This document shows positions 10,158 to 52,848 of a stretch of 64,000 bases of DNA, piece after piece. The position numbers were made by a program, and so were the translations under genes. The DNA is taken from assembly GCA_026397505.1 (NCBI GenBank), contig JAPLUR010000047.1, positions 11,040-75,039 on the forward strand, written 5' to 3'. Below the pieces are notes generated by a model. It saw only the letters and a list, made by a program, of their open reading frames with translations, had not been told where the DNA came from and did not search any database. This DNA is from Candidatus Zixiibacteriota bacterium (lineage in GTDB: Bacteria; Zixibacteria; MSB-5A5; GN15; PGXB01). How positions within the stretch are numbered: position 1 is the first letter of the stretch; every line of letters begins with the position of its first letter.

Positions 10158-11341
10158 ATGGCCATTCCCAGGGAATCAACCGGTAAATCACTCAGTTGGC
10201 GTTTTATCTTAAGGGCACTGAAGTACCGCAATTACCGTCTCTTTTTCGGCGGCCAGGGGATTTCTCTCATAGGAACATGGATGCAGCGGCTGGCGGTCAG
10301 TTGGCTGATTTACCGCCTCACCGGCTCTCCGTTCCTTCTGGGGATCGCCGGTTTTGCCAGCCAGATACCGACTTTCATTCTGGCCCCGGTGGCCGGAGTG
10401 GTCGCCGATAGATACAACCGGATGCGGATTCTCATCCTGACCCAGACATTGGCGATGTTTCAGGCTCTGATATTGGCGGTCCTGGTTCTTACCAATGCCG
10501 TTGAGGTTTGGCATATTATTGCCTTAAGCCTTGCCCTGGGGGTCATCAATGCCTTTGATATGCCCGCGCGGCAGTCACTGGTGGTGGAGATGATTGAAAA
10601 TCGTGAGGATCTGGGGAACGCCATTGCTCTGAATTCTTCTATGTTCAACGGCGCCCGCCTGATCGGGCCGTCACTGGGCGGGATACTCATTGCGACGGTT
10701 GGCGAAGGGATTTGTTTTCTAATCAATGGACTCAGTTTTATTGCCGTGATCATTGCTCTTCTCTACATGAAGATTAACGCCCATCCTGCAGAGAATAAAG
10801 GGACACGTTTTTTGCAAGGGCTTAAGGAGGGGTTCGTATACGCGTTCGGCTTCCTGCCGATTCGTTCCATACTACTGCTCCTGTCCCTGGTCAGTTTGAT
10901 GGGGATGCAGTATGCGGTGCTGATGCCGATTTTCGCCAAAGATATTCTTCACGGCGGCCCCAACACGCTGGGATGCTGCCGATCGGCTTTGGCCTGATGG
11001 TGCAGATGGCGGCAAGCAATACGGTGTTGCAGACCATTGTCGATGATGACAAGCGCGGCCGTTTGATGAGCATTTACGCCATGGCCTTCATGGGCGTCAC
11101 GCCGCTGGGTAGCCTTCTGGCGGGAAGCATGGCCAGCCATTTCGGCGCCCCGGCCACCCTGATTGTGGGAGGGGCGGTCTGTATTTTGGGGGCGGCGGCT
11201 TTTGCCCGAGAACTGCCGCGTATCAGGAAACAGATTCGCCCGATTTACCAGAGAAAAGGGATTCTCCCTCTGACAATACCAATCAATGAATCGATTGGGG
11301 GGATGCCGGCCCAGCCGGGGCCGGGGGAAAGACCGATATAA
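10158..11341 (+). pseudogene. MFS transporter interrupted by a -1 frameshift near 10970 (two ORFs, 10158..10997 and 10973..11341)
   Basis: The N-terminal ORF ends ...ILHGGPNTLGCCRSALA*. The next frame continues MLPIGFGLMVQMAASNTV..., the expected MFS C-terminal half. The join LG|MLPIGFG needs one extra base in 'ctggga'. Confidence 0.7.
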
Positions 11342-11520
11342 AGCTACACCGGCTATTCCGGCGGGTCTGAGGACCCGCGCGGCACAATAAATGTGCAGCG
11401 GTGGGGGCCAGGCACCGCGGTAAAATGGGTTTGTCTATTAAATTCTTGTCCCTCCAAAAAATATAATCACTTTCTGCTTATTTGTTGCCGGAAAAGGGCT
11501 TGGGTGGTCGGGAGAGGTTT

Positions 11521-11740
11521 GGTAAAATGGGTTTGTTTCTTCGTTTTTTAAAAGTGTCATTTTGCCCCCTCCGGTAGAAAAAATACAAAAATAGGGTGTT
11601 TTGGGAAGTAAGGCCGCTTGGAATTGATCTCTTTTTGTTTTCCGACATATTAATAACCTGAGCATTAGTGGCTCTAATAATGGGGATGGAGGGCAAATCA
11701 CCATCGATTCGATGTGGATTTTGCAGAGGGTGAGGAAAAG
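11521..11740. repeat. bipartite about 220-nt intergenic element, copy 1 (conserved left arm 11521-11566, right arm 11689-11740)
   Basis: Left arm GGTAAAATGGGTTTGTTTCTTCGTTTTTTAAAAG. Right arm GGAGGGCAAATCACCATCGATTCGATGTGGATTTTGCAGAGGGTGAGGAAAAG. A partial extra left arm lies at 11419-11439. Confidence 0.65.
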
Positions 11741-11879
11741 TTCATCCCCAAGCCGTCCGCTCGAAGCGAACGGCCTGGGAATGCCACCCAGCCGTTCACG
11801 ATGTGGCTGCCGTGGGGGAATGCAACCTCGGCGAGTTTCAGGCTGTCAGGAGAGACTCCCACTGCGAGGGAAGGCGCAA

Positions 11880-11912: not shown

Positions 11913-12116
11913 CTAGCTTTGTTTCGTACGATACCGCCGGCGAATTGTCCGGGTTATCAAAAGGTCAATCAAACCGATTAGCGGACCACAGATCAAGCCG
12001 AGCAGTATCAAAAAGGGCAAACTCAGCTTTTCCATTTGAAAGAAATGATATGGAATAACCAAAGCAAGCCCATATATGATTCCCCTGACCAGGTAGGGCA
12101 AATTACCCTGTAGCAA
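11913..12116 (-). CDS. small hydrophobic (2-TM) protein, hypothetical
   Basis: TTG start preceded by AAAGGAGG, 24 nt after the stop of the upstream lipoprotein gene. Hydrophobic composition. Confidence 0.35.
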   Translation of the reverse strand: MLQGNLPYLVRGIIYGLALVIPYHFFQMEKLSLPFLILLGLICGPLIGLIDLLITRTIRRRYRTKQS

Positions 12117-12139
12117 TCAATCCTCCTTTGTTGACATTG

Positions 12140-12895
12140 TTATCTTAACAATTGATCAGCGGCGCAACCAAGCATAGAGCCGAAGGCACTGCCGCCGCAA
12201 GCTAAGCCCAAACAACCCAAATATCCGGCGGTAGAGGCAATACAAATAATGCTGGATGCACCGCAACCTGTAATGGCACGTGAAAGACTGCACTTTAGCC
12301 ATGATTTCCAACGCCACTTTGCGGCCATAGGATAATTAGGGTATAAGTTCATTGAATAGGTGGGCATATAACCATATAGCCAGAGTTGATAATCACCCAT
12401 GTCCTGCATTTCAAAGCCATCTCTTGCGACGGAAGATAGTAATTGCGACTGGATACACCACCCAATGTCCGGATTGCTGACCTGCGTGACATATGCAGCG
12501 ATAGTGCTGTCGCCCGGCATCTCCATAGCCAAGATCAATATTTCCACCGATATCAATGAATCTCTGTCCGGATATTCTGCTTCACCTTCGACGATGAAAC
12601 TGTACTGATATGCCAGACGGAATCCCTGCTCCTCAAAGAATTTGATCTGAGTATTTGCAGGTTCACTTTGTGCCCCCTGCATAAGCCGGGTCGCACCACC
12701 GTTGTCCCATGTCACCATGGTGCCTCCGCCTCCCGTGCCATCGGCAAACCAGTCCTGACGATTATGTTTCAGCCAATCACTCTGATTCATTTTACGCGTG
12801 CTTTCCATGCCACTCTTGCCACAACTCAGGATCAATGCCACTGCCATTAAGGCAATCATCGATCCAATAAACAACGATCTTCGCCTGCGCATCAT
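12140..12895 (-). CDS. lipoprotein with Cys/Gly-rich hydrophobic C-terminal tail, hypothetical
   Basis: AAGGAGG RBS before ATGATG. Lipobox-like ALILSCG. C-terminus ITGCGASSIICIASTAGYLGCLGLACGGSAFGSMLGCAADQLLR. Confidence 0.6.
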   Translation of the reverse strand: MMRRRRSLFIGSMIALMAVALILSCGKSGMESTRKMNQSDWLKHNRQDWFADGTGGGGTMVTWDNGGATRLMQGAQSEPANTQIKFFEEQGFRLAYQYSFIVEGEAEYPDRDSLISVEILILAMEMPGDSTIAAYVTQVSNPDIGWCIQSQLLSSVARDGFEMQDMGDYQLWLYGYMPTYSMNLYPNYPMAAKWRWKSWLKCSLSRAITGCGASSIICIASTAGYLGCLGLACGGSAFGSMLGCAADQLLR

Positions 12896-13347
12896 GATTT
12901 CCTCCTTCATAATAAATAATGATTAAATCTCTTGGCAATATCTAATTGCCATATTTCATTTTTATATTTTCCCATTCTCTCCTTTCCTATGGCGGGTCAA
13001 GGCAATTGATCGGACAGATGCCCCATCTCTCGATTTGAACACCGCCCGCCTTTCGGCGGGCGGCTTCCCTGTCAACCCGAATGGAGGTGAGTCCTCTTAC
13101 CCTGCTCAGGCCGGAGGCACAGAAATGGTTTTGTTCTTTCAGATGCCGAGAGCAGGCTGGAGCCTTGGCCTTAAGCGCTGAACAGCCCGCCCCGGCTATC
13201 CTCAATGGTCCGCCAAATTGGGCTCATGACAGACCAGCAATGCTCATATCAAAAGCGATGCCAACCGAAAGCAGGCACGTCGATATCGCGATAATATGTT
13301 GAACAATAAAGAATTAGGTTGGTATGTTTGAAGAGAGGGCTATTCCT

Positions 13348-13410
13348 GAGCCAGGATGCCTGCGTAGTCTACGCAGGCATCCTGGCTCGCGCTGCGCAGA
13401 CTACGCATCC
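13348..13410. repeat. palindromic repeat element, copy A (GAGCCAGGATGCCTGCGTAGTCTACGCAGGCATCCTGGCTC + TGCGCAGACTACGCATC)
   Basis: Perfect 19-bp-arm inverted repeat around GTC, followed by a second TGCG.AG.CTACGCA palindrome. Confidence 0.85.
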
Positions 13411-13545
13411 AAGTTATTCCGAGGCTTGATAATGTATTCGCTGCTGGATAATTACAGATATGACACGATGAGCTGCCCCACCGGCACAATTAGAGAAGCC
13501 ATTTGACCAGCGTTAGCCCGACACCAATAAGCACGCCACCAGCCG

Positions 13546-13743
13546 CTACTTTCCTTCGCCCCGTTTCTTCAATCGGCTATCGATTAGTATCGAAACGGTA
13601 AGCGCTATATAAATGGCGAAAATAGCGGCTAAGTCATCGCAGAACCCTCTCCTGATGGCGTGCTTAATAAGGAAAAGAACTGGTATGGCAACTATGACAC
13701 CCAACAAGGTTGAAAGAATGAAACGACCAGTTGCTTTTGCCAT
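13546..13743 (-). CDS. small membrane protein (65 aa, 2 TM), hypothetical
   Basis: Hydrophobic helices. Sits in the AT-rich cassette on the same strand as its neighbours. Confidence 0.4.
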   Translation of the reverse strand: MAKATGRFILSTLLGVIVAIPVLFLIKHAIRRGFCDDLAAIFAIYIALTVSILIDSRLKKRGEGK

Positions 13744-13938
13744 TTTCGCATTGCTCCTTTATCAAATAGGATATCACCAAATATTCGAATATTATTCTGG
13801 AAACATAATAATATTGTACTAGTCAGCCAGCATGCTAAGCGCACATACCACATATGAGATAGCCACAGCGCTTATAAAGTTAGGACCTAAATGGATGCCA
13901 ACCTCCCGCCTTTATGATCAATTTCAGCGTTGTTGAGA

Positions 13939-14190
13939 TCAGTCAATATTACACCAATAAATTGCGCCTAATAATGCACCAGACGCCCAAAATCCAATAG
14001 CTAATAGATACAATTTATAGCCCTCTGGGGAAAACCAATCCTTCATCTTCCAAACGGGCCTGATATATTTCATACGAATACTTCCGAGCGCAAACGGCGG
14101 ACAAGATTCAGTACGACGTCTTAAGGCAGGCACTATAGCAATTATACCTGCAATTTCCAATAGCAGTGATAACACAAGCAATAGAATCAT
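13939..14190 (-). CDS. small 2-TM membrane protein, paralog of 14359..14637
   Basis: Shares the motif IRPVWKMKDWFSPEGYKLY with the neighbour (VQPWKVNEWFTPTGVKLY). AGGAAA lies before the ATG. Confidence 0.55.
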   Translation of the reverse strand: MILLLVLSLLLEIAGIIAIVPALRRRTESCPPFALGSIRMKYIRPVWKMKDWFSPEGYKLYLLAIGFWASGALLGAIYWCNID

Positions 14191-14358
14191 ATATGTTTCC
14201 TGTGCTTAAAGAATCCTACTTTTACTTCATACAAAATATCTATTCATTACCCACATATTCCTTTAATATGGCCGATTCCTTGCATTACGCAATATAATTT
14301 AACAATGGCCTCAATCAAAGATGGCGATAAGTACTACGGAAATTGCACATGCCGTCCC

Positions 14359-14637
14359 TTATTTAAAAGGGAAGTCAAATCCGCCGCTGATGATCAGAAG
14401 CACGACTCCTATCATAATACAGGTGTAGCTTGTAAAGTAGAGTTTAACACCTGTCGGCGTAAACCATTCATTTACTTTCCATGGCTGAACCCAATGAATA
14501 GGGTTATATGACGGCATTGGTGGCGCATTGGCCGCGCGATGTTTCCGGGCCAGAAATCCGAGCACTAATCCCATCACCAGAAATACTGCACACAACAATA
14601 ACAGAAAAGTATTCATACCATATCCTCCACTACTCAT
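14359..14637 (-). CDS. small 2-TM membrane protein, paralog of 13939..14190
   Basis: Same architecture as the neighbour: TM, basic patch, W-x-x-E/D-WF-x-P-x-G-x-KLY, TM. Confidence 0.55.
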   Translation of the reverse strand: MSSGGYGMNTFLLLLCAVFLVMGLVLGFLARKHRAANAPPMPSYNPIHWVQPWKVNEWFTPTGVKLYFTSYTCIMIGVVLLIISGGFDFPFK

Positions 14638-14676
14638 AATTGTTTCTGATGATCATTTGTCTTATCGCCGTCCTTT

Positions 14677-15636
14677 TTACAATATTTTCACTAAAACACA
14701 TACGACCACACCTATTGAACATCCGACACATACTATGTTGGAAAAACCGCCAAATGGGCATTTGAGCACTATACACTCGTAAACCATGTGACAAATGAGT
14801 TCCCATGGGATTTCTGTTTCCGGGTACATGGTTTCGCCATGAGGCATTTCAAGCCTGTGTTCGGTATAAATGCGGGAAGCCAATTCCTTGCTCTTAATCA
14901 AATCAATTACCAGTTGGGCATCAGAGTTATTGTACAGTGAATTTGATGTGTCGTTAAATTGGTTAAATTCCTCAATGGTCCCGATAATTTCAAGGTCTTG
15001 AGCAGCATATTTGGCCAGGTTGCGCTCATTGTAGCGCTCATATGAATATACCTGGTCCCTCAATGATGCAATTCTGCTCACATCATCAGTGGGAAATGCA
15101 AATGCCCTGCGCATGCCGTTTAATGTGTAAGTTTCAGTGAAGAGATGCGGCTCTCTTTTCTGTTCGATAACCAGTTCATCAGATTCGGTTTTCTCCGTCA
15201 CCCAGAAATGCGTGCTGTCGCTGCGATCAAATTCGCACCCTAAGGCCCATTTAAGATGCTCGCGCTCGTCAATCAAGGTGGCACGCCAGCATCGATAGGT
15301 CGTAGGAGTGGCATAAGCCTCAATAATCAATTTGCGATTTTGAGGAGACTGGGTGTTCTCATATGCCATTATATTAAAAGTGGCTTTATTAGCTGCAGTG
15401 TCAATATTATAGGACAATATATCCACTTTTCCGACCGACAAACTGACGGTGAGCAACGGCGGTTTCTCGCAATCAATTTGTTGCTGCTCTCCGATCGCTT
15501 TCATTTGCGTGGCCGAGGTGGCGTTTTTACCACCATCTTTTTCCGTGATCGGCGTTTCATTACAGCCGGTAAGCAATTGCATCATAATGCAAATACTCAA
15601 TGCGGCGATACAAACCATAGTGGATTTGAGCTTCAT
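14677..15636 (-). CDS. lipoprotein with Cys-rich hydrophobic C-terminal tail, hypothetical
   Basis: GGAGG RBS 7 nt before the ATG at 15636. Lipobox LLTGC. C-terminus ICHMVYECIVLKCPFGGFSNIVCVGCSIGVVVCVLVKIL. Confidence 0.6.
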   Translation of the reverse strand: MKLKSTMVCIAALSICIMMQLLTGCNETPITEKDGGKNATSATQMKAIGEQQQIDCEKPPLLTVSLSVGKVDILSYNIDTAANKATFNIMAYENTQSPQNRKLIIEAYATPTTYRCWRATLIDEREHLKWALGCEFDRSDSTHFWVTEKTESDELVIEQKREPHLFTETYTLNGMRRAFAFPTDDVSRIASLRDQVYSYERYNERNLAKYAAQDLEIIGTIEEFNQFNDTSNSLYNNSDAQLVIDLIKSKELASRIYTEHRLEMPHGETMYPETEIPWELICHMVYECIVLKCPFGGFSNIVCVGCSIGVVVCVLVKIL

Positions 15637-15794
15637 GGCAATTCCTCCTTTGTTTAGAGCCATTTCCCGAATTATGCCTAAGCCAAATCCGTACCAAGTT
15701 TGGAAGACTATGCCGCCACATTCATAACTCCAATATTGTCATGATGTTAATTATACAAGTCATAGCATTGACTTTAGAACAGCTAAGTTGCACT

Positions 15795-15843
15795 TGCGTA
15801 GTCTACGCAGGCATCCTGGCTCACAGTGCGTAGTCTACGCATC
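15795..15843. repeat. palindromic repeat element, copy B (TGCGTAGTCTACGCAGGCATCCTGGCTC-N6-TGCGTAGTCTACGCATC), direct repeat of copy A
   Basis: Same 28-mer plus second palindrome, in the same orientation as copy A, about 2.4 kb away. Overlaps the 3' end of the sigma-54 regulator gene. Confidence 0.85.
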
Positions 15844-17985
15844 GGAATCATTGCCGATATCGTATTTTCGCATTTGATAGCGCACCCCACCCTCAGTAAG
15901 GCCCAGCCGGCGGGCCGCCTCGCGCTGATTCCAATCCGATTCCTGAAGTGTCTTAAGCAGTTTCTCCCTGTCAGTCTGATTCCCTTCAGACAAAAACTCA
16001 AGCATCCTGCTTATATCCCCACTGCAGGTCAGGCAGAGACGCCGAACCTCTACCCGCAACTCCCGCACATTCCCCGACCAGGGGCGGGTCTGAAGAATGC
16101 TACAGATTTCCTTAAAAGCATCATGATTCCCATCAGACGTAGGATCAAAGCCGCCTTCGGCAAGAAAATGAGAGATTAGAGCCGGGATGTCGTCGCTGCG
16201 CTCCGACAGCGGCGGAAGTGAAATCGGTATCTCATTCAGACGGTGATAGAGATCGGCCCGAAACCGGCCGCTGCGAATTGCCTCCTCCAGGTTTTGATTG
16301 GTCGCTGCGATCACCCGAATATTCAGTTTGGTCGGCTGCGTGCTCCCCAGCCGACGAACCTCTCTGGTCTCCAAAACCTCCAGAAGTTTCGCCTGAAACT
16401 GCGGCGTCGTATCGGCAATCTCATTCAAATAAAAAGTGCCGCCTTCGGCCGTTTCAAACAAACCCGGCTTATCCTGTGGAGCCCCAGTGAATGCCCCTTT
16501 CCGATACCCAAACAACTCCGATTCAACCATCCCCTCCGGTATCGCCGCCGCATTCACCGAAACGAATTTGCCCGCCCGCCCCGAACAAAAGTGGATATAT
16601 TTGGCCAACTGGTCTTTCCCCGTACCGGTCGGCCCGGTCAACAAAACTGTCATCTCTGAGGCGGCAATATTCTCGGCCAACGCCCGGATTTTCCGAGTCG
16701 TGGGATGTTCCGCCACAAAAACAGGACACGCCCCGCCGGAGGGACGAGGAGCGGGGCGTGCGGGTGTTACCGTCAACACGGCATTAACTTTCTCTATGTA
16801 CGGCCGGATATCTTCCGACTCAAAATATTCTTTCGCCAGATAAAGGAGGGCCGCCTTCTCGCCATTGCCATACAATCCGGAGACAGCCGCCAGGTAGCGG
16901 GTGGCCGCCAGTTCATACCGGCTGCTTATTTGAGCGAAAAGGTCAATTGCTTTTTTGAACCATTCTTTGGCTTTATCTTTTTCCCCTCTTTGAAGGGCAG
17001 TCTGAGCGAACACCCGCCAACAAGCGGCAATTTCGGCCCGCTCGTTGATCTTCTCGGCGACAATTAATGCTTCCTCGGCATATTTCTGGGCCAAATCGTA
17101 CCTCTTCAGGCCGAGATAAGCATCAGCCAGAAGCCGTTTGGTTTGGGAGATAAGGGCCGACTCGGGGGCGATTTTAAGCGAGAGTTCCAGCCCTGATAGA
17201 AGCGCCTTCTCCGCCTCATTGAATTCCCCCGCAAGGATATGTATCCAGCCGAGGAATTCATAATACTGCGCCTTTTCACGCTTTAGATCGCCGGACAATT
17301 GTGTCGTCTCAGCTATGAGCTGCTTTGCTGGCCCAATATCACCAACGTGGGCCATGACTAGGGCACAGCGCAATTTATGACGATAGGTGAAATCTGCTGT
17401 AGGATTGTGCATATGTGCTGCTGTGCAATTGAATAGTGAAAGTGCGCTTTGCAGTTGGCCCGAAATAAAATATACCATAGCAAGATTATGGGTCAGACTT
17501 TTAACTTTTTCCTGGTCATTTGACTGCTGATATAGGTCAATGCATTGCTTGAGAAGATTGATAGAAGCGTCAATTTCGCCGGATAAACCTGCAATAAATG
17601 CTAAACGATTTAGTGAGGCTGCAGCGCCTCCGACATCATCGCATCGTTTATAGCTTCCGTACGATTCGAGAAAACATTCGCGCGCTTCGGCATGATTTCC
17701 CATCGCGACGTAGACCCTGCCGAGCAGGAATTTGGCTTTGGCGTATCTATCGGTCCGAATACTATACCTGTAATGCCGGATGGCGCTATTGATGATGGGG
17801 AGAAGATCATAATCGCCAAGTTGAAGACCTATCTCGGTCTTCAAAATGCAATAATGGGCATAGTCGTCAGGCAACATTGACTTAGCATTGAACTTGGTCA
17901 ATTCTAAAGAAGCTGCTCCGAAATTCCTGTCTTTCAGGAATTGCTCAATTGCGGAGAATAGAGATATGTATGTCTCTTGTTTCAT
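15835..17985 (-). CDS. sigma-54-dependent transcriptional activator (bacterial enhancer-binding protein) with N-terminal TPR repeats and C-terminal Fis-type HTH; no receiver domain
   Basis: AAA+ sigma54-interaction domain (GPTGTGKDQLAKYIH, GAFTGA, GGTFYLNEIAD, RFRADLYHRLN). HTH REAARRLGLTEGGVRYQMRKY. TPR-like N-terminal half. Confidence 0.85.
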   Translation of the reverse strand: MKQETYISLFSAIEQFLKDRNFGAASLELTKFNAKSMLPDDYAHYCILKTEIGLQLGDYDLLPIINSAIRHYRYSIRTDRYAKAKFLLGRVYVAMGNHAEARECFLESYGSYKRCDDVGGAAASLNRLAFIAGLSGEIDASINLLKQCIDLYQQSNDQEKVKSLTHNLAMVYFISGQLQSALSLFNCTAAHMHNPTADFTYRHKLRCALVMAHVGDIGPAKQLIAETTQLSGDLKREKAQYYEFLGWIHILAGEFNEAEKALLSGLELSLKIAPESALISQTKRLLADAYLGLKRYDLAQKYAEEALIVAEKINERAEIAACWRVFAQTALQRGEKDKAKEWFKKAIDLFAQISSRYELAATRYLAAVSGLYGNGEKAALLYLAKEYFESEDIRPYIEKVNAVLTVTPARPAPRPSGGACPVFVAEHPTTRKIRALAENIAASEMTVLLTGPTGTGKDQLAKYIHFCSGRAGKFVSVNAAAIPEGMVESELFGYRKGAFTGAPQDKPGLFETAEGGTFYLNEIADTTPQFQAKLLEVLETREVRRLGSTQPTKLNIRVIAATNQNLEEAIRSGRFRADLYHRLNEIPISLPPLSERSDDIPALISHFLAEGGFDPTSDGNHDAFKEICSILQTRPWSGNVRELRVEVRRLCLTCSGDISRMLEFLSEGNQTDREKLLKTLQESDWNQREAARRLGLTEGGVRYQMRKYDIGNDSDA

Positions 17986-18286
17986 TTCCCGGCGTAATTA
18001 CCTTCCAGTAGGAAGGAAAAATAAAGGTTTGATTCGTTATGGCCCTGATAATGTTGATGATTGTATGGCCTTCGTCGCCATTATTTCCGTTATAAATATT
18101 GGGCGCTATTCTGCAAGGAGAAGTGGAGTGAGACAGCAAAACATCTTCCCACGGATAATCCCACAAAATCGGATTGTTAATGGGCTGCACATTTCTTATT
18201 CTATTGCCGCCATCAGCTAGAACAGGTGGGGAAAACAAAATCCATATCACCGCCCCCAGCAGCAAAGCAAACATTATCTTTTTCAT
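17945..18286 (-). CDS. small secreted protein (113 aa), paralog of 18332..18712
   Basis: Signal peptide MKKIMFALLLGAVIWILFSPPVLADGGNRIRNV is about 90% identical to the neighbour's N-terminus. The 5' leader is also conserved. Confidence 0.6.
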   Translation of the reverse strand: MKKIMFALLLGAVIWILFSPPVLADGGNRIRNVQPINNPILWDYPWEDVLLSHSTSPCRIAPNIYNGNNGDEGHTIINIIRAITNQTFIFPSYWKVITPGNETRDIHISILRN

Positions 18287-18331
18287 AACTTTCGCCTCTT
18301 CCTAAAGGTTTATTAAGGCCACTAAACCTCA

Positions 18332-18712
18332 TCACCGGCGGCCCAAATCGCCGGCATTTATATCTGTGTCGAAACTCCCGACCAAGGGGTCGGGACAGGC
18401 GCAGGGGTTTCGACCTATCTTAATCAACGAAAAATCAAATCTTATAGAGAAATATATATAAAGCATATTGCCTATAATGTTTCTCGGGGGAGTAGTCACG
18501 CGGTCCTGCGTAGCAATCCTTATGTTTGACAACGCGATGTCAGATAGTGATGGTGACGCACCATCCAATTCCTGCCACGGGTGTTCTTCAAGAGTAGGAT
18601 CATGGATTGATATCACATTTCTTATTCTATTACCCCCATCAGCAAGAATGGGTGGGGAAAACAACATCCATATCACAGTCCCCAGCAGTAATGCAAACAT
18701 TATCTTTTTCAT
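18332..18712 (-). CDS. small secreted protein, diverged paralog of 17945..18286
   Basis: Start set at MKKIMFALLLGTVIWMLFSPPILADGGNRIRNV, with a GAGGTG RBS. The ORF track's longer start (18748) lacks an RBS. Confidence 0.6.
   Translation of the reverse strand: MKKIMFALLLGTVIWMLFSPPILADGGNRIRNVISIHDPTLEEHPWQELDGASPSLSDIALSNIRIATQDRVTTPPRNIIGNMLYIYFSIRFDFSLIKIGRNPCACPDPLVGSFDTDINAGDLGRR
18366..18428. repeat. GTCGAAAC...GTTTCGACCTA element, copy 2 (in the 5' leader of small secreted protein gene A)
   Basis: tGTCGAAACtcccgaccaaggggtcgggacaggcgcaggGGTTTCGACCTAt with an inner hairpin TCCCGACC/GGTCGGGA. Confidence 0.7.
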
Positions 18713-18790
18713 AATCATCACCTCATTCAAAAGGTTTATCTTGGCCACTAAACCTCATCACCGGCAATCCAATCCACCGGCATTTATTCT

Positions 18791-50404: not shown

Positions 50405-52354
50405 TTATTTTGACGCGTCCGACGGCACTTTTTGCGTTTCCCCGGCGCGCCTTTCCTGCCCGGAGGCGATTTCTCTTTTCACCGGCAGGTTGATCACGAA
50501 GATAGCCCGGGATTCATCGCCGGTGTGATAAGCGATTTCACCCTTGTGGATGTCGGCCACATTTTTGCAGGTGATCAATCCGAGGCCGTTGCATCCCCTC
50601 TTGGTGCTGAAGCGGGTGACAAACATTTTGGGGATATTTTCCTCATTGATTCCGGGGCCGCTGTCGGTGACCTTCAGAATTACATTTTGACCGGATTCAT
50701 CAGGAGCGGTTGAAATTATTATCCAGCGGGTTCCCTCGAACGTGGTCATAGCTTCGGCGGCGTTGTAGAGGAGGTTGACCAGCAATAGCTGAATCTGGCT
50801 GGCATCGATTTCCACCAGCGGCAGATTTTCGGAAAGATTGGTGCCAATCAAAATGTCATCGAATTTGTTCTGCGGTTTGACAAAGGCGATCAGGTTTTCA
50901 ATCAGCTGGTTGAGATCTTCTTTGCGGAATTCGCTGTTTTCGTCGCTGAACTGGGTGAGGCCGTCGGTGAATTTGGATATCTTCGTAACAGTATCTTTCA
51001 TCACATTGATTTTCTGTTCGCACTTAGCCGTGTCGTTTTTGGCCATGAACATGGGCAGGAGTTCCAGATTCCCCTGCAAAATGGCCAGATAATTATTTAT
51101 TTCATGGGCGATATCGCGGGCCATTTTGCCGCGCGAGGCGATACGGTCGAGCCTGAGAATCATATTCTGGTAGTTTTCGCTCTCGGAAATATCTTTGATA
51201 AAATAGAGCATGGCGATCGGCTTACACCCTTCGGGCCCCAGGGTGGTATGAACAAGCAGGGCGGGAAACCGGCTGCCGTCGCGCCGCCGGCAGATAATTT
51301 CCTGGGTCTCAAGATTCTCGGTTTCCGTGGCATTGAGCCGGTCGTGGGTGTTGGGCAGGGCAAACAGGTTGCCAATTTTCCTCCCCAGCAGGTCGCTTTG
51401 ATTATAGCCGAAACCGCGCGCCGCCTGCTGATTATAGATGATAACCTGATCATCAAGATCGGTCACAATAATGGCATCGGGAGAATAATCGACCAGCGCG
51501 GTCAATATTGACTCGGATTCGATAAGGGATTTGTTGGCTTTCACGAGTTCGTGATTGGCGATCGACAGTTTGCGTTGCTTTTCGGACAGGCTCTGGGACA
51601 TCTGATTGAAGGCCCGGGCCAGCCGCTGAATATCTTTATCACCCTCGTCTTCGGACACATAATGCTCATGACCGTCGGCGGTTCGTTCCAGCGCTTCAAT
51701 GAGGTTGGCCAGCGGCCGCTTGACACCCCGGAACATCAGATTGATGATTAGAAGAGAAATAAGAGCCGAAAACAGGAAGAGCAGAAAGAGCACTTCCGCC
51801 TGATTCCCTTTGGCGTCGCCCTCCATATCATTTGATGCGGTCAGATATATGGCATAGTCATTTCGGGCATTGGTGGGCCGCATGATAAAGCCCAGATGAC
51901 TTCCATCGCCGGAAAGAACAGTCGGGCTCCCGGCGCCTGCATAAATGAATCCATTCCGGAGGCTGGAATCGGGAGCAGTGGAGAACTCCAAAGGATGAGA
52001 ATCAAACCCGGTGCGATCGGACAAATGGAACAGGCTGTCCCGCCCGGTTCTGGGATTATGATAGATGACATTGACGGCATCAACCCAGCTGTTTTCCCGA
52101 ACAAGCCGCTCCGCTTCACTTTTCATTTTCGAATTATTGAAGGGACTGGCAGTGGAATCAGCCTCGATCAGGTCAAAGAGGGTCTGGGATGCCACTTCGG
52201 CTTGCTGTCGTTGCCGGTAATAGTGCTGGGTCGGCGTATCGCTGCTACCGGAATCAAACAGCACCAGCGCCAGGGCGGCGAATATGAAGAGAACCTGGAT
52301 TATAATGAGATGTGAAATTCGTATAAATAAACCGGGAGTTTTAAAGCCAAGCAT
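50405..52354 (-). CDS. sensor histidine kinase (TM, PAS, HisKA, HATPase)
   Basis: H-box MARDIAHEINNYLAIL. ATPase motifs NLLYNAAEA, DSGPGI, GNGLGLITC. Confidence 0.85.
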   Translation of the reverse strand: MLGFKTPGLFIRISHLIIIQVLFIFAALALVLFDSGSSDTPTQHYYRQRQQAEVASQTLFDLIEADSTASPFNNSKMKSEAERLVRENSWVDAVNVIYHNPRTGRDSLFHLSDRTGFDSHPLEFSTAPDSSLRNGFIYAGAGSPTVLSGDGSHLGFIMRPTNARNDYAIYLTASNDMEGDAKGNQAEVLFLLFLFSALISLLIINLMFRGVKRPLANLIEALERTADGHEHYVSEDEGDKDIQRLARAFNQMSQSLSEKQRKLSIANHELVKANKSLIESESILTALVDYSPDAIIVTDLDDQVIIYNQQAARGFGYNQSDLLGRKIGNLFALPNTHDRLNATETENLETQEIICRRRDGSRFPALLVHTTLGPEGCKPIAMLYFIKDISESENYQNMILRLDRIASRGKMARDIAHEINNYLAILQGNLELLPMFMAKNDTAKCEQKINVMKDTVTKISKFTDGLTQFSDENSEFRKEDLNQLIENLIAFVKPQNKFDDILIGTNLSENLPLVEIDASQIQLLLVNLLYNAAEAMTTFEGTRWIIISTAPDESGQNVILKVTDSGPGINEENIPKMFVTRFSTKRGCNGLGLITCKNVADIHKGEIAYHTGDESRAIFVINLPVKREIASGQERRAGETQKVPSDASK

Positions 52355-52848
52355 TTTCTCACCCTAATACTGTTTCCGCCAACATTATCACCATTATCGG
52401 CAGAAAAGCTGATTCAGATTAGGGATTAGAAGGGGATAAAAAAATAGGGAGTGGTGGAGGGGGGATGCCCGACTCTAACGTCAGGTGGCTGGTAGGCCAG
52501 CACACACCACTCCCTAAATCTCTAACAACTCAGGGAGGAAAATTGTTCGTTTCTTGCTTAGCAAAAAAGCAACTATCGTGCCGGATGGAACATAAGCAGT
52601 TAAAGAAGGACCAATAAACACTACATTCCTATCCACTTTCAAGGCAACATATTCAGTGCTGCCTGCAAGGATATGAATCAAGCAAAGAGGCTTTGCCCCG
52701 GAATAGATGCGCAAACGGCTTCATAATAGACGCAACTTCAGGCAGTTAAGACGGTTAGAGGAATGCGCAGAAATTGCCCCGGCAGCGGCAGATTCAAATC
52801 TTGCATGAGGACAGTTTGAACCCTCTGCAAAGGGGAAATTGGGAAGTT

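What the first reader, a model, noticed from the sequence alone, without database searches (positions are those of the whole stretch)
12116..15850. AT-rich cassette of Cys-tailed lipoproteins and paralogous small 2-TM proteins, bracketed by palindromic direct repeats
The cassette lies between the frameshifted MFS gene and the sigma-54 activator. It carries (a) two lipoproteins (12140..12895, 14677..15636), each ending in a Cys/Gly-rich hydrophobic tail of a type used as C-terminal sorting tags (MYXO-CTERM or GlyGly-CTERM-like), (b) three small membrane proteins, two of them clear paralogs sharing the motif W-x-x-[DE]-WF-x-P-x-G-x-KLY, and (c) a small 2-TM ORF with a strong RBS. The segment 13.4-15.8 kb is visibly AT-richer than its flanks. 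It is delimited by two about 48-bp palindromic direct repeats (13348-13410, 15795-15843). None of the proteins matches a family I can name. This is the best candidate in the window for an undescribed, horizontally acquired membrane-surface system, possibly regulated by the adjacent TPR-sigma54 activator.
Basis: partly seen in the sequence, partly recalled or inferred. Interest (0 to 1): 0.7.

Follow-up and report, generated by a model that had tools for sequence, protein, structure and literature searches.

The report
Sigma-54 enhancer sites driving Cys-hairpin lipoproteins
The two "bracketing" repeats are most likely paired docking sites for the neighbouring sigma-54 activator, each placed in front of a promoter that drives a lipoprotein with a cysteine-rich helical hairpin tail plus small membrane partner proteins; this gene module is conserved in Zixibacteria and Ignavibacteria, has not been described, and may be a toxin-immunity system.

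Summary
The reading of the repeats is wrong.

**Repeats.** Each repeat is a pair of 15-bp palindromes (TGCGTAG-N-CTACGCA) 32 bp apart. Their centres lie 106-107 and 138-139 bp upstream of a sigma-54 -24/-12 element. Eight promoters in six genomes show the same geometry next to homologous TPR-AAA+-HTH activators. I read them as enhancer sites of two tandem transcription units, not cassette borders.

**Cargo.**
- Unit B (lipoB, sm92, sm83, sm65) is the most AT-rich 2.4 kb of the window. The only close relative carries different genes there.
- Unit A (a 330-nt conserved leader, lipoA, sm67) is conserved in that relative.
- lipoA belongs to a family of about 66 clusters. Its 58-residue tail (WxWxxWxKC, six Cys, Gly/Ala-rich) is modelled as a helical hairpin.
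- lipoB belongs to a second family.
- Each family has its own type of 2-TM partner. Orphan tails and partner-gene arrays occur.

**Databases.** Pfam, NCBIfam, PADLOC, PHROGs, Rfam and PDB give nothing. The tails do not match known sorting tags.

**Function.** Most likely a bacteriocin-like toxin-immunity system. This is inferred only.

The parts
11743..11783 (-). Terminator-like hairpin (19 pairs) downstream of sm67; probable end of transcription unit A
11913..12116 (-). sm67: a 67-aa 2-TM protein (TTG start, AAGGAGGA RBS). It is the cognate partner type of lipoA-family lipoproteins: TM, short acidic loop, TM, basic C-terminus.
   Evidence: The gene is conserved in L038 (5187-5396). Analogous 57-80 aa 2-TM genes follow lipoA homologs in L007, L039, L040, L165 and L166.
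12140..12895 (-). lipoA: a 251-aa lipoprotein (NT002_03785). It has a lipobox, a disordered linker, an alpha+beta domain (residues ~58-180) and a C-terminal Cys6 hairpin.
   Evidence: AF2 model with mean pLDDT 84.
12143..12328 (-). Region encoding the lipoA tail domain (residues ~190-251). It carries WxWxxWxKC, then six conserved Cys in Gly/Ala-rich sequence, and is modelled as two antiparallel helices (196-219 and 225-250).
12933..12951 (.). Inverted repeat TGGCAAT-ATCTA-ATTGCCA just upstream of the lipoA RBS, identical in L038. It overlaps a sigma-70-like hexamer pair.
13040..13247 (-). Highly conserved, GC-rich, structured leader or ncRNA between promoter A and lipoA. It shows far fewer differences from L038 than the coding DNA does (77-80% identity).
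   Evidence: The - strand folds at -99.7 kcal/mol with z = -3.9, against z = -2.0 for the + strand. There is no Rfam match. One compensatory and two pair-compatible changes occur in the first stem.
13248..13263 (-). Sigma-54-type promoter A: TGGCATCGCTTTTGAT (GG at -24; TTGA instead of TTGC at -12).
   Evidence: conserved in L038. It has the same distance to its palindromes as promoter B. TTGT at -12 is seen in the lipoA-type promoters of L007 and L040.
13347..13410 (.). Repeat copy A, read as enhancer A. It holds two palindromes, at 13361-13375 and 13393-13407, 32 bp apart. Their centres lie 105.5 and 137.5 bp upstream of the -24 GG of promoter A.
13546..13743 (-). sm65: a 65-aa predicted 2-TM protein, the last gene of unit B
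13939..14190 (-). sm83: an 83-aa 2-TM protein of the sm83/92 family. The conserved loop motif is NP..W.P.WK..[DE].F.P.G..L.
14359..14637 (-). sm92: a 92-aa 2-TM protein, paralog of sm83
14677..15636 (-). lipoB: a 319-aa lipoprotein (NT002_03800) with a six-Cys hydrophobic tail. It is unrelated to the lipoA family. It is homologous over its full length to the lipoprotein that follows a paralogous activator in the Ignavibacteriaceae locus L005.
15681..15696 (-). Sigma-54-type promoter B: TGGTACGGATTTGGCT, 45 nt upstream of the lipoB ATG at 15636
15795..15843 (.). Repeat copy B, read as enhancer B. It holds two palindromes, at 15795-15809 and 15827-15841. Their centres lie 106.5 and 138.5 bp upstream of the -24 GG of promoter B. 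It overlaps the stop codon of the activator gene.
15835..17985 (-). TPR-AAA+(sigma-54 interaction)-HTH_8 enhancer-binding protein, 716 aa (NCBI aa)
17945..18286 (-). sec113: a small protein with a signal peptide, directly upstream of the activator. The only family-wide conserved element is the motif D/H-P-W-[EDG]-[ED].
18332..18748 (-). sec138: a tandem paralog of sec113. It is 71% identical through the PW motif and unrelated after it.

Best explanation
The region is a sigma-54 regulon unit, not a repeat-bounded mobile cassette.

**Regulation.** The adjacent gene encodes a TPR-AAA+-HTH enhancer-binding protein. I propose that it binds the two repeats. Each repeat is a tandem pair of 15-bp palindromes three helical turns apart. 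Each pair sits about 106 and 138 bp upstream of the -24 GG of a sigma-54 promoter.

- Promoter B (15681-15696) would drive lipoB-sm92-sm83-sm65.
- Promoter A (13248-13263) would drive a roughly 330-nt structured leader, then lipoA-sm67, ending at the hairpin at 11743-11783.

**Cargo.** Each unit encodes a lipid-anchored protein whose C-terminus is a Cys-rich, Gly/Ala-rich helical hairpin. For the lipoA family, six invariant Cys are placed in register for three inter-helix disulfides, preceded by a Trp-rich interfacial motif. Each lipoprotein gene is followed by family-specific small 2-TM inner-membrane proteins.

**Proposed function (inferred, not shown).** The lipoproteins are cell-envelope-anchored, membrane-active bacteriocin-like toxins. 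The small 2-TM proteins are their cognate immunity proteins. The module is switched on by the activator in response to a signal read by its TPR domain.

**Variability.** Unit B is a strain-variable slot. It is AT-rich and is swapped in the closest relative. Unit A is the conserved core.
For: **Regulatory part**
- The activator has Sigma54_activat (E=4e-60), TPR and HTH_8 domains.
- The palindromes occur only at these two sites in 64 kb.
- Palindrome centres lie 105.5-107.5 and 137.5-139.5 bp upstream of the -24 GG in WIN_A, WIN_B, L038_A, L038_B, L002, L005, L029 and L163. Shifted variants occur in L001 and L007.
- Sigma-54 motif hits scoring at least 10 of 12 were found just downstream of the activator in 8 loci. 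Background was 0.031 per kb per strand, so I estimate fewer than one hit by chance in the roughly 12 kb of intergenic DNA scanned.
- Both repeat copies and both promoters are conserved in L038.
- L164 also carries a second enhancer copy after its first unit.

**Cargo**
- The lipoA family has 66 representatives at E<=1e-3 among 1.84 billion proteins.
- The tail occurs on at least two different N-terminal domains and as short ORFs.
- 26 of 29 tails that carry the WxWxxWxxC motif have exactly six Cys; 12 of 29 carry GxxxGxxxG.
- The AF2 model has pLDDT 84 and shows the tail as a helical hairpin.
- Every family contig with enough upstream DNA except L042 and L167 shows the activator, or its C-terminal end, directly upstream: WIN, L038, L007, L040, L041, L163, L164 and L166.
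- A 2-TM partner gene follows in WIN, L038, L007, L039, L040, L165 and L166.
- lipoB is homologous to the L005 lipoprotein (E=5e-18), which is likewise followed by sm83/92 homologs.

**Toxin-immunity indicators**
- An orphan tail plus a truncated sm67 lies downstream in L038, and an orphan tail in L041.
- Extra or orphan partner genes occur in L038, L009 and L035. L166 has an array of three sm83/92-type genes.
- Unit B is replaced between close relatives.
- Paralogous activators sit next to a radical-SAM gene (shown for L012; inferred for L029), Cys-rich peptide ORFs and CPBP/Rce1-like genes in L012 and L029. A CPBP gene follows the lipoA pair in L007.
Against: - No experiment exists and nothing is homologous to a known toxin or immunity protein.
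- In polymorphic toxins the C-terminal tip is the variable part. Here the lipoA tail is the most conserved part and the N-terminal domain varies.
- A lipobox argues for retention on the producer cell, and no export or delivery machinery lies nearby.
- Promoter A has GA rather than the canonical GC at -12. A sigma-70-like promoter also sits close to lipoA.
- The link between this activator and these palindromes rests on position and comparison between genomes, not on binding data.
- Only one close relative was available for the swap comparison.
Confidence: 0.5

Rival explanations
1. Envelope-structural or envelope-stress module. The lipoproteins would insert their hairpins into the cell's own membrane, in the manner of SlyB or Pcp, or form a lipid-anchor-to-TM tether. 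The small 2-TM proteins would be structural or regulatory partners, as PspB, PspC and PspG are in the sigma-54-dependent psp regulon. No killing is involved.
For: - The genes have sigma-54 and enhancer-binding-protein control, as in psp.
- The lipobox suggests retention on the producer cell.
- The hairpin is borderline hydrophobic: the best 19-residue Kyte-Doolittle window averages 1.71.
- The lipoA tail is conserved across the family rather than hypervariable.
- No delivery machinery was seen nearby.
Against: - No Pfam hit to the glycine-zipper lipoprotein or Psp families.
- Orphan tails, truncated partner genes and arrays of partner paralogs are not expected of housekeeping envelope proteins.
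- Unit B is swapped between close relatives and has atypical composition.
- Six invariant Cys would be unusual inside TM helices.
Confidence: 0.25
2. One reading: a horizontally acquired cassette whose ends are the two 48-bp direct repeats, for example through site-specific or repeat-mediated insertion.
For: - Segment 13411-15794 has the lowest GC of the window.
- lipoB has no close homolog among 5.8 billion proteins.
- The segment is replaced in L038, and the right-hand break in homology coincides with repeat B.
Against: - The repeats are retained in L038 around different cargo.
- They have a fixed geometry relative to sigma-54 promoters at this locus and in unrelated genomes.
- The left-hand break is at 13541, not at repeat A.
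- No integrase or transposase was found.
- The replaced DNA brings its own sigma-54 promoter.
- The lipoB + sm83/92 module also occurs next to a homologous activator and enhancer in Ignavibacteriaceae. It is therefore part of the system, not foreign to it.
Confidence: 0.08
3. The Cys/Gly-rich tails are C-terminal sorting signals of a new type. An unlinked sortase-like enzyme would recognise and cleave them and attach the proteins to the surface.
For: - The tail sits at the C-terminus.
- A conserved signature (WxWxxWxKC) is followed by hydrophobic sequence and a terminal basic residue.
- The tail is found on several different N-terminal domains.
Against: - No match to any NCBIfam or Pfam sorting-domain model at E<=10.
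- The domain is 58 residues with two helices and six invariant Cys, and is modelled with high confidence. Known sorting signals are about 25-35 residues with one TM helix.
- The proteins already carry an N-terminal lipid anchor.
- The gene that co-occurs with them is a 2-TM miniprotein, not a protease.
- Stand-alone tail ORFs exist.
Confidence: 0.1
4. Phage-derived lysis cassette: a unimolecular spanin-like lipoprotein (N-terminal lipid anchor plus C-terminal TM) together with small holins.
For: The architecture (lipobox plus hydrophobic C-terminus) resembles a u-spanin. Very weak holin Pfam hits exist for sm65 and sm92 (E=0.05-0.1).
Against: - No PHROGs hit for any of the window cassette proteins.
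- No endolysin or phage genes nearby.
- The genes are under dedicated sigma-54 activator control, conserved across phyla.
- The lipoproteins are twice the size of known u-spanins.
Confidence: 0.03

Closest known systems
NtrC-type enhancer-binding-protein and sigma-54 promoter architecture (for example glnAp2, or pspA with PspF)
   Same: An AAA+ activator with a C-terminal Fis-type HTH. Two dyad-symmetric upstream sites about three helical turns apart, roughly 100-140 bp upstream of a -24 GG / -12 GC promoter. Basis for the comparison: established knowledge of these systems.
   Different: The sensor is a roughly 400-residue TPR array, not a receiver, GAF, PAS or V4R domain. The activator gene is always preceded by a small secreted protein with a DPW[EDG][ED] motif. 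The half-site is TGCGTA. Promoter A and some family promoters carry TTGA or TTGT at -12.
Cdz contact-dependent bacteriocin system of Caulobacter (CdzC/D + CdzI; PMC5380434)
   Same: Small-residue-rich, glycine-zipper-type proteins that stay on the producer's envelope. A small multi-TM inner-membrane immunity protein is encoded beside them. Expression is conditional (for the Cdz facts; for this locus).
   Different: The Cdz proteins are 84-86 aa, exported by a dedicated type I system, and lack a lipobox. The proteins here are 250-320 aa Sec/lipoprotein substrates with a globular domain and a six-Cys hairpin. There is no T1SS gene, no sequence similarity, and toxicity has not been shown.
Polymorphic toxin loci with orphan toxin-tip and immunity modules (CDI, Rhs)
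   Same: A truncated tail plus a partial partner gene lies downstream of the full gene in L038, and an orphan tail in L041. Extra partner genes occur, and the loci differ between strains.
   Different: In the lipoA family the tail is the conserved element and the N-terminal domain varies. There is no delivery domain (TPS, PAAR, LXG).
MYXO-CTERM and GlyGly-CTERM sorting domains
   Same: C-terminal position, with Cys and Gly and hydrophobic residues.
   Different: No HMM match. The tail is twice as long, has two helices and six invariant Cys, and has no partner sortase.
RRNPP-type peptide quorum sensing (Rap/Rgg/NprR/PlcR/PrgX)
   Same: A cytoplasmic TPR-containing transcription factor is encoded next to a small secreted pro-protein whose only conserved part is a short motif. 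The cargo in sister loci looks like bacteriocin or RiPP clusters.
   Different: The output domain is a sigma-54 AAA+ ATPase rather than an XRE-type HTH or a phosphatase. The organisms are FCB-group bacteria, not Firmicutes. Import and binding of the peptide are entirely untested.

Membership tests
Enhancer-binding-protein-dependent sigma-54 promoter with upstream enhancer | Activator with a sigma-54-interaction AAA+ domain and a DNA-binding HTH, encoded in cis | tested here: met
   PF00158 E=3.8e-60 and HTH_8 E=1e-7.
Enhancer-binding-protein-dependent sigma-54 promoter with upstream enhancer | -24 GG / -12 GC promoter element in front of the regulated gene | tested here: met
   Promoter B is TGGTACGGATTTGGCT, 45 nt upstream of the lipoB ATG. 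Eight loci show hits downstream of the activator, against an estimated fewer than one by chance. Promoter A meets GG but has GA at -12, so it is only partly met.
Enhancer-binding-protein-dependent sigma-54 promoter with upstream enhancer | Dyad-symmetric activator sites about 80-150 bp upstream, conserved in position | tested here: met
   Palindrome centres at 105.5-107.5 and 137.5-139.5 bp upstream in 8 promoters of 6 genomes.
Enhancer-binding-protein-dependent sigma-54 promoter with upstream enhancer | Physical binding of the activator and rpoN-dependent transcription | not testable with these tools
   Needs EMSA or footprinting and transcription-start mapping.
MYXO-CTERM / GlyGly-CTERM (and other NCBIfam C-terminal sorting domains) | Match to the family HMM | tested here: not met
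   No NCBIfam or Pfam hit for five tails at E<=10, nor for the whole proteins.
MYXO-CTERM / GlyGly-CTERM (and other NCBIfam C-terminal sorting domains) | Signature motif, then a single TM helix, then a basic cluster, about 25-35 residues in all | tested here: not met
   The lipoA tail is 58 residues, with two helices (196-219 and 225-250), six Cys and one terminal basic residue.
MYXO-CTERM / GlyGly-CTERM (and other NCBIfam C-terminal sorting domains) | Cognate processing enzyme (rhombosortase, exosortase or the like) in the genome or neighbourhood | tested here: inconclusive
   None among the ten flanking genes scanned. The rest of the genome is not available.
Bacterial lipoprotein | Signal peptide ending in a lipobox [LVI][ASTVI][GAS]C | tested here: met
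   lipoA has ...LILSC and lipoB has ...LLTGC. 19 of 24 full-length family members have a lipobox by regular expression.
Bacteriocin-like or polymorphic toxin with immunity protein | Toxin gene immediately followed by a small cognate protective gene | tested here: met
   As an arrangement only. lipoA-type genes are followed by sm67-type genes in 7 loci, and lipoB-type by sm83/92-type in 2 loci.
Bacteriocin-like or polymorphic toxin with immunity protein | Orphan or displaced toxin-tip and immunity modules, and strain-level replacement | tested here: met
   L038 5788-6063, L041 9117-9362, and the swap of unit B.
Bacteriocin-like or polymorphic toxin with immunity protein | Homology to a known toxin or immunity family, or demonstrated toxicity | tested here: not met
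Bacteriocin-like or polymorphic toxin with immunity protein | Dedicated export or delivery machinery (T1SS with C39 peptidase, TPS, T6SS and so on) | tested here: not met
   Neighbours are aconitase, MFS, PrpD, Nramp, Usp and a kinase.
Glycine-zipper 2TM lipoproteins (SlyB/Pcp, PF05433/PF13488) | HMM match, with the hairpin directly after the lipid anchor | tested here: not met
   No Pfam hit. The hairpin is at the C-terminus, after a globular domain.
Repeat-bounded mobile cassette (integron-like or MITE-like) | Recombinase or transposase present, with the repeats forming both junctions of the variable DNA | tested here: not met
   No such gene. The left junction is at 13541, 130 bp from repeat A.

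The most novel reading that the evidence does not exclude
Zixibacteria and Ignavibacteria may use a family of TPR-sensor sigma-54 activators as receptors for a secreted peptide cut from the co-encoded DPW[EDG][ED]-motif pro-protein. This would be an RRNPP-like quorum-sensing logic wired to sigma-54. Its output would be arsenals of antagonistic cargo: lipid-anchored, disulfide-stapled glycine-zipper hairpin toxins with cognate 2-TM immunity proteins, and, in sister loci, radical-SAM-modified Cys-rich peptides. The long conserved leader in front of lipoA-type genes would add a second, RNA-level checkpoint.
Probability: 0.15. Interest if true: 0.85.

Novelty: new variant of a known kind. Interest (0 to 1): 0.58.

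Why it matters
- It turns an apparent "repeat-bounded island" into a readable circuit: activator, two enhancers, two sigma-54 promoters and two cargo units.
- It defines two protein families absent from Pfam and NCBIfam, the Cys6 hairpin lipoproteins and their miniprotein partners, in phyla with few or no cultured members.
- It gives a predicted DNA recognition sequence and promoter geometry for a large activator family (at least 240 members at E<=1e-100). Regulons in Zixibacteria and Ignavibacteria MAGs could be predicted from sequence.
- If the cargo is a toxin-immunity system, this would be a new lipid-anchored class of membrane-active antagonism proteins.
- If the PW-motif protein is the activator's ligand, this would be peptide signalling through a sigma-54 activator.

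Tried and rejected
- **Metagenome scan for the extended palindrome.** Zero hits. Even L038's own sample is apparently not in that collection.
- **Metagenome scan with a back-translated W/Cys spacing pattern of the tail.** 120 stretches were returned. None of the 120 loci held passes the tail HMM, so all are chance matches.
- **AF2 with three sequences.** Useless (pLDDT 38). Superseded by the 56-sequence run.
- **Rfam at gathering and E-value thresholds.** Nothing real. The miRNA "hits" are just the palindrome.
- **Joint alignment and RNAalifold of eight leaders.** No common structure. The leaders are too divergent for MAFFT.
- **PHROGs and PADLOC.** No phage or defence relationship.
- **Literature searches on Zixibacteria with sigma-54, and on TPR activators with bacteriocins.** Nothing relevant.
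- **lipoA and lipoB as paralogs.** Rejected.
- **Repeats as REP-like genome-wide elements.** Rejected for this window: they occur at only two sites in 64 kb.

Full report
**1. What is in the sequence**

All genes of the region lie on the - strand. In the direction of transcription they are:
- sec138 (18332-18748) and sec113 (17945-18286), two paralogous small proteins with signal peptides;
- a 716-aa activator (15835-17985) with TPR repeats, a sigma-54-interaction AAA+ domain and a Fis-type HTH;
- repeat copy B (15795-15843);
- lipoB (14677-15636), sm92 (14359-14637), sm83 (13939-14190) and sm65 (13546-13743);
- repeat copy A (13347-13410);
- a 330-nt non-coding stretch;
- lipoA (12140-12895) and sm67 (11913-12116);
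- a strong terminator-like hairpin (11743-11783).

The window comes from a candidate division Zixibacteria MAG; lipoA is NT002_03785 and lipoB is NT002_03800.

- Both lipoproteins have lipoboxes and six-Cys hydrophobic tails.
- sm83 and sm92 are paralogs (E=7e-9).
- sm67 has an AAGGAGGA ribosome-binding site.
- Segment 13411-15794 has GC 0.424, the lowest of all 617 sliding 2.4-kb windows.
- The core palindrome of the repeat occurs only at these two places in 64 kb, against 0.02 expected.
- None of the cassette proteins hits Pfam, NCBIfam, PHROGs or PADLOC.

**2. The repeats are enhancers, not cassette ends**

Each repeat contains two copies of TGCGTAG-N-CTACGCA, 32 bp apart.

Downstream of copy B, 45 nt before the lipoB ATG, lies TTGGTACGGATTTGGCT. 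This is a sigma-54 -24/-12 element. Downstream of copy A lies TTGGCATCGCTTTTGAT (13248-13263).

The palindrome centres are 106.5 and 138.5 bp upstream of the -24 GG at B, and 105.5 and 137.5 bp at A.

A genome scan with the activator returned 37 loci from Zixibacteria and Ignavibacteria MAGs, 36-57% identical (best segment), often several per genome. A protein search showed at least 240 relatives at E<=1e-100.

Eight loci have a strong sigma-54 motif just downstream of the activator gene. Background was 0.031 per kb per strand, so I estimate fewer than one such hit by chance.

L038 (both sites), L002, L005, L029 and L163 each have two palindromes of the same or a related half-site (TGCGTA or TCGTA). 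Their centres lie at 105.5-108 and 137.5-139.5 bp, the same geometry. L001 and L007 show shifted variants. L164 also has a second enhancer copy after its first cargo unit.

This is the classic layout of an enhancer-binding protein with a sigma-54 promoter. The two repeats therefore mark two tandem promoters controlled by one activator.

**3. Comparison with the only close relative**

L038 is a 9.2-kb JGI contig whose activator is 78% identical.
- It aligns with the window from sec113 through repeat B (77%).
- It aligns again from 13541 through repeat A, the leader, lipoA and sm67 (80%).
- Between these, L038 has unrelated DNA encoding a 252-aa lipoprotein and an 84-aa TM protein.
- That lipoprotein is a distant lipoA-family member (hhalign probability 96.8%, E=2.4e-10).

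So unit B is a variable slot, while both enhancers are kept. The right-hand break is at the end of repeat B. The left-hand break is about 130 bp from repeat A, so the repeats do not form both junctions.

Downstream of its lipoA + sm67 pair, L038 also carries:
- an extra sm67-like gene;
- an orphan lipoA tail (MMGCVASSIVCIASTAGYLGC...) fused to nothing;
- a truncated sm67;
- a lone sm83/92-type gene.

**4. The cargo families**

*lipoA family.* A profile of lipoA searched against 1.84 billion representatives found 66 proteins at E<=1e-3. They share a C-terminal domain of about 58 residues:
- WxWxxWxKC, followed by six Cys with spacings of 8, 6, 9, 4 and 10 residues;
- 17% Ala, 16% Gly and 10.5% Cys;
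- GxxxGxxxG in 12 of 29 motif-bearing tails.

The domain sits on at least two different N-terminal domains and also occurs as 74-122 aa ORFs.

With a 56-sequence alignment AF2 gives mean pLDDT 84. The model has a disordered linker, an alpha+beta domain (residues 58-180, pLDDT mostly above 90) and a helical hairpin (196-219 and 225-250).

The Cys positions are 202, 211 and 218 on one helix and 228, 233 and 244 on the other. They are in register for three inter-helix disulfides; this is my inference from the sequence positions, because the coordinates could not be inspected.

*lipoB.* It has no close homolog and is unrelated to the lipoA family. It aligns over its full length (23% identity, E=5e-18) with the lipoprotein of the Ignavibacteriaceae locus L005. 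That protein also follows an activator, two TGCGTA palindromes and a sigma-54 promoter, has a four-Cys hairpin-like tail, and is followed by sm83/92 homologs.

*Partner proteins.*
- lipoA-type genes are followed by 57-80 aa 2-TM proteins of one design (TM, acidic loop, TM, basic tail) in WIN, L038, L007, L039, L040, L165 and L166.
- lipoB-type genes are followed by sm83/92-type proteins.
- sm83/92-type genes also occur without a lipoB gene: in L038, L009 and L035, and as an array of three in L166.

*Genomic context.* Every lipoA-family contig with enough upstream sequence has the activator directly upstream, usually with its small secreted partner. These are WIN, L038, L007, L040, L041, L163, L164 and L166. 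The exceptions are:
- L042, which has a sigma-54-type promoter but an opposite-strand gene upstream;
- L167, a contig with a weak Rep_1 hit, which may be a mobile element.

**5. What the tails are not**

No sorting-signal or bacteriocin HMM matches the tails, even at E<=10. Their length, two-helix model and six invariant Cys do not fit the MYXO-CTERM or GlyGly-CTERM architecture. The flanking genes are housekeeping: aconitase, MFS, PrpD, Nramp, Usp and a kinase.

**6. Mechanism**

*Shown by sequence and comparison.* There are two sigma-54 promoter units, each with a tandem enhancer, next to their probable activator. The gene pairs are cognate and conserved across two phyla. Unit B is a variable slot.

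*Inferred.* I propose that the lipoproteins are envelope-anchored, membrane-active proteins and that the 2-TM miniproteins neutralise them, as in a bacteriocin-immunity system. The indications are:
- orphan tails and truncated partner genes;
- arrays of partner genes;
- replacement of unit B between close relatives;
- a CPBP/Rce1-like gene after the pair in L007;
- sister activators controlling clusters of a radical-SAM gene, Cys-rich peptide ORFs and a CPBP gene in L012 and L029.

The closest functional analogue is the Cdz system of Caulobacter. There, surface-retained glycine-zipper proteins are paired with a small inner-membrane immunity protein (PMC5380434).

Against this reading:
- there is no homology to any toxin;
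- the tail is the conserved part, not the variable part;
- the proteins are lipid-anchored to the producer;
- there is no delivery machinery.

A structural or envelope-stress role therefore remains a serious rival.

**7. Things noticed around it**

- Every activator of the family for which upstream sequence was available is preceded by a small secreted protein. Its only conserved element is D/H-P-W-[EDG]-[ED]. In five loci the protein ends right after this motif. The window and L166 both have two tandem paralogs that are near-identical up to the motif and unrelated after it. This suggests a peptide ligand for the TPR domain.
- The leader in front of lipoA (13040-13247) is far better conserved against L038 than the coding DNA is. 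It folds with z = -3.9 on the - strand and has no Rfam match.
- Leaders of 238-470 nt occur in 8 of 9 lipoA-type loci. Conservation is seen only within subgroups.

**8. Verdict**

It is wrong on the role of the repeats and on the sorting-tag idea.

The regulatory layout belongs to a known kind. The sensor arrangement and the cargo families are new. Confidence is about 0.85 for the regulatory reading and about 0.35-0.4 for toxin-immunity.

Noticed in passing
window 17945-18748 (-); also L001-L032, L041, L164 and L166, upstream of each activator: Small secreted proteins directly upstream of, and often overlapping, every TPR-sigma54 activator gene for which upstream sequence was available. They share only a signal peptide and the motif D/H-P-W-[EDG]-[ED]. 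In five loci the protein ends right after the motif. The window and L166 each have two tandem paralogs that are near-identical up to the motif and unrelated after it. This may be a peptide ligand or pro-peptide for the TPR sensor.
   Followed up: partly
window 13040-13247 (-); L038 4052-4268: The non-coding stretch between promoter A and lipoA is far better conserved than the coding DNA (77-80% identity). It is GC-rich and folds with z = -3.9 on the - strand. It has no Rfam family. One compensatory and two compatible changes occur in its first stem. It could be a cis-regulatory leader or a sigma-54-dependent sRNA.
   Followed up: partly
L007 12357-12679, L165 341-829, L041 7671-8003, L164 3725-3999: Long leaders (238-470 nt) precede 8 of 9 lipoA-type genes. 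L007 and L165 share a hairpin with the identical loop GACCTGATGCCGTC on different, fully paired stems. L041 and L164 share CTCTCAAC...GGGTTC...CCCGGC blocks. No common alignment was obtainable.
   Followed up: partly
window 12933-12951: Inverted repeat TGGCAAT-ATCTA-ATTGCCA just upstream of the lipoA RBS, identical in L038. It overlaps a sigma-70-like promoter match (TTGCCA-18-TATTAT). It may be an operator or an RBS-proximal RNA hairpin.
   Followed up: no
L038 5570-6063 and 6372-6641; L041 9117-9362: Orphan modules: an extra sm67-like gene, a start-less lipoA tail closer to the window's allele than to L038's own, a truncated sm67, and a lone sm83/92-type gene. L041 has a second, stand-alone tail ORF after its lipoprotein.
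   Followed up: yes
L012 6771-12156; L029 1416-4174: In L012 a paralogous activator is followed by a sigma-54 promoter, a radical-SAM enzyme (Pfam hit), several 46-60 aa Cys-rich peptides beginning M-x-W-[IV]-[VI]-x-P, and a CPBP/Rce1-like membrane protease. This looks like a RiPP cluster under the same regulator family. L029 has the same layout; its 456-aa first gene was not scanned and is only presumed to be a radical-SAM enzyme.
   Followed up: partly
L167 1283-2206 and 4520-5650: One tail-bearing lipoprotein (P0161) lies on a 16-kb contig without an activator but with a weak Rep_1 / REP_ORF2-G2P hit and many unknown small genes. It may be a plasmid-borne or phage-borne copy.
   Followed up: no
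window 11419-11439 and 11521-11541: Direct repeat GGTAAAATGGGTTTGT (90% identical, 102 bp apart) in the non-coding gap between the MFS gene remnant and the terminator of unit A. Unexplained.
   Followed up: no
window 10158-11341 (+): The MFS transporter is split into two overlapping ORFs in different frames (10158-10997 and 10973-11341).
   Followed up: no
window 52568-52583 (-): The best sigma-54 consensus match of the window (CGGCACGATAGTTGCT, one mismatch), about 215 nt upstream of the ORF 50405-52354 (-). It is a further candidate sigma-54 promoter, with no TGCGTAG palindromes nearby.
   Followed up: no
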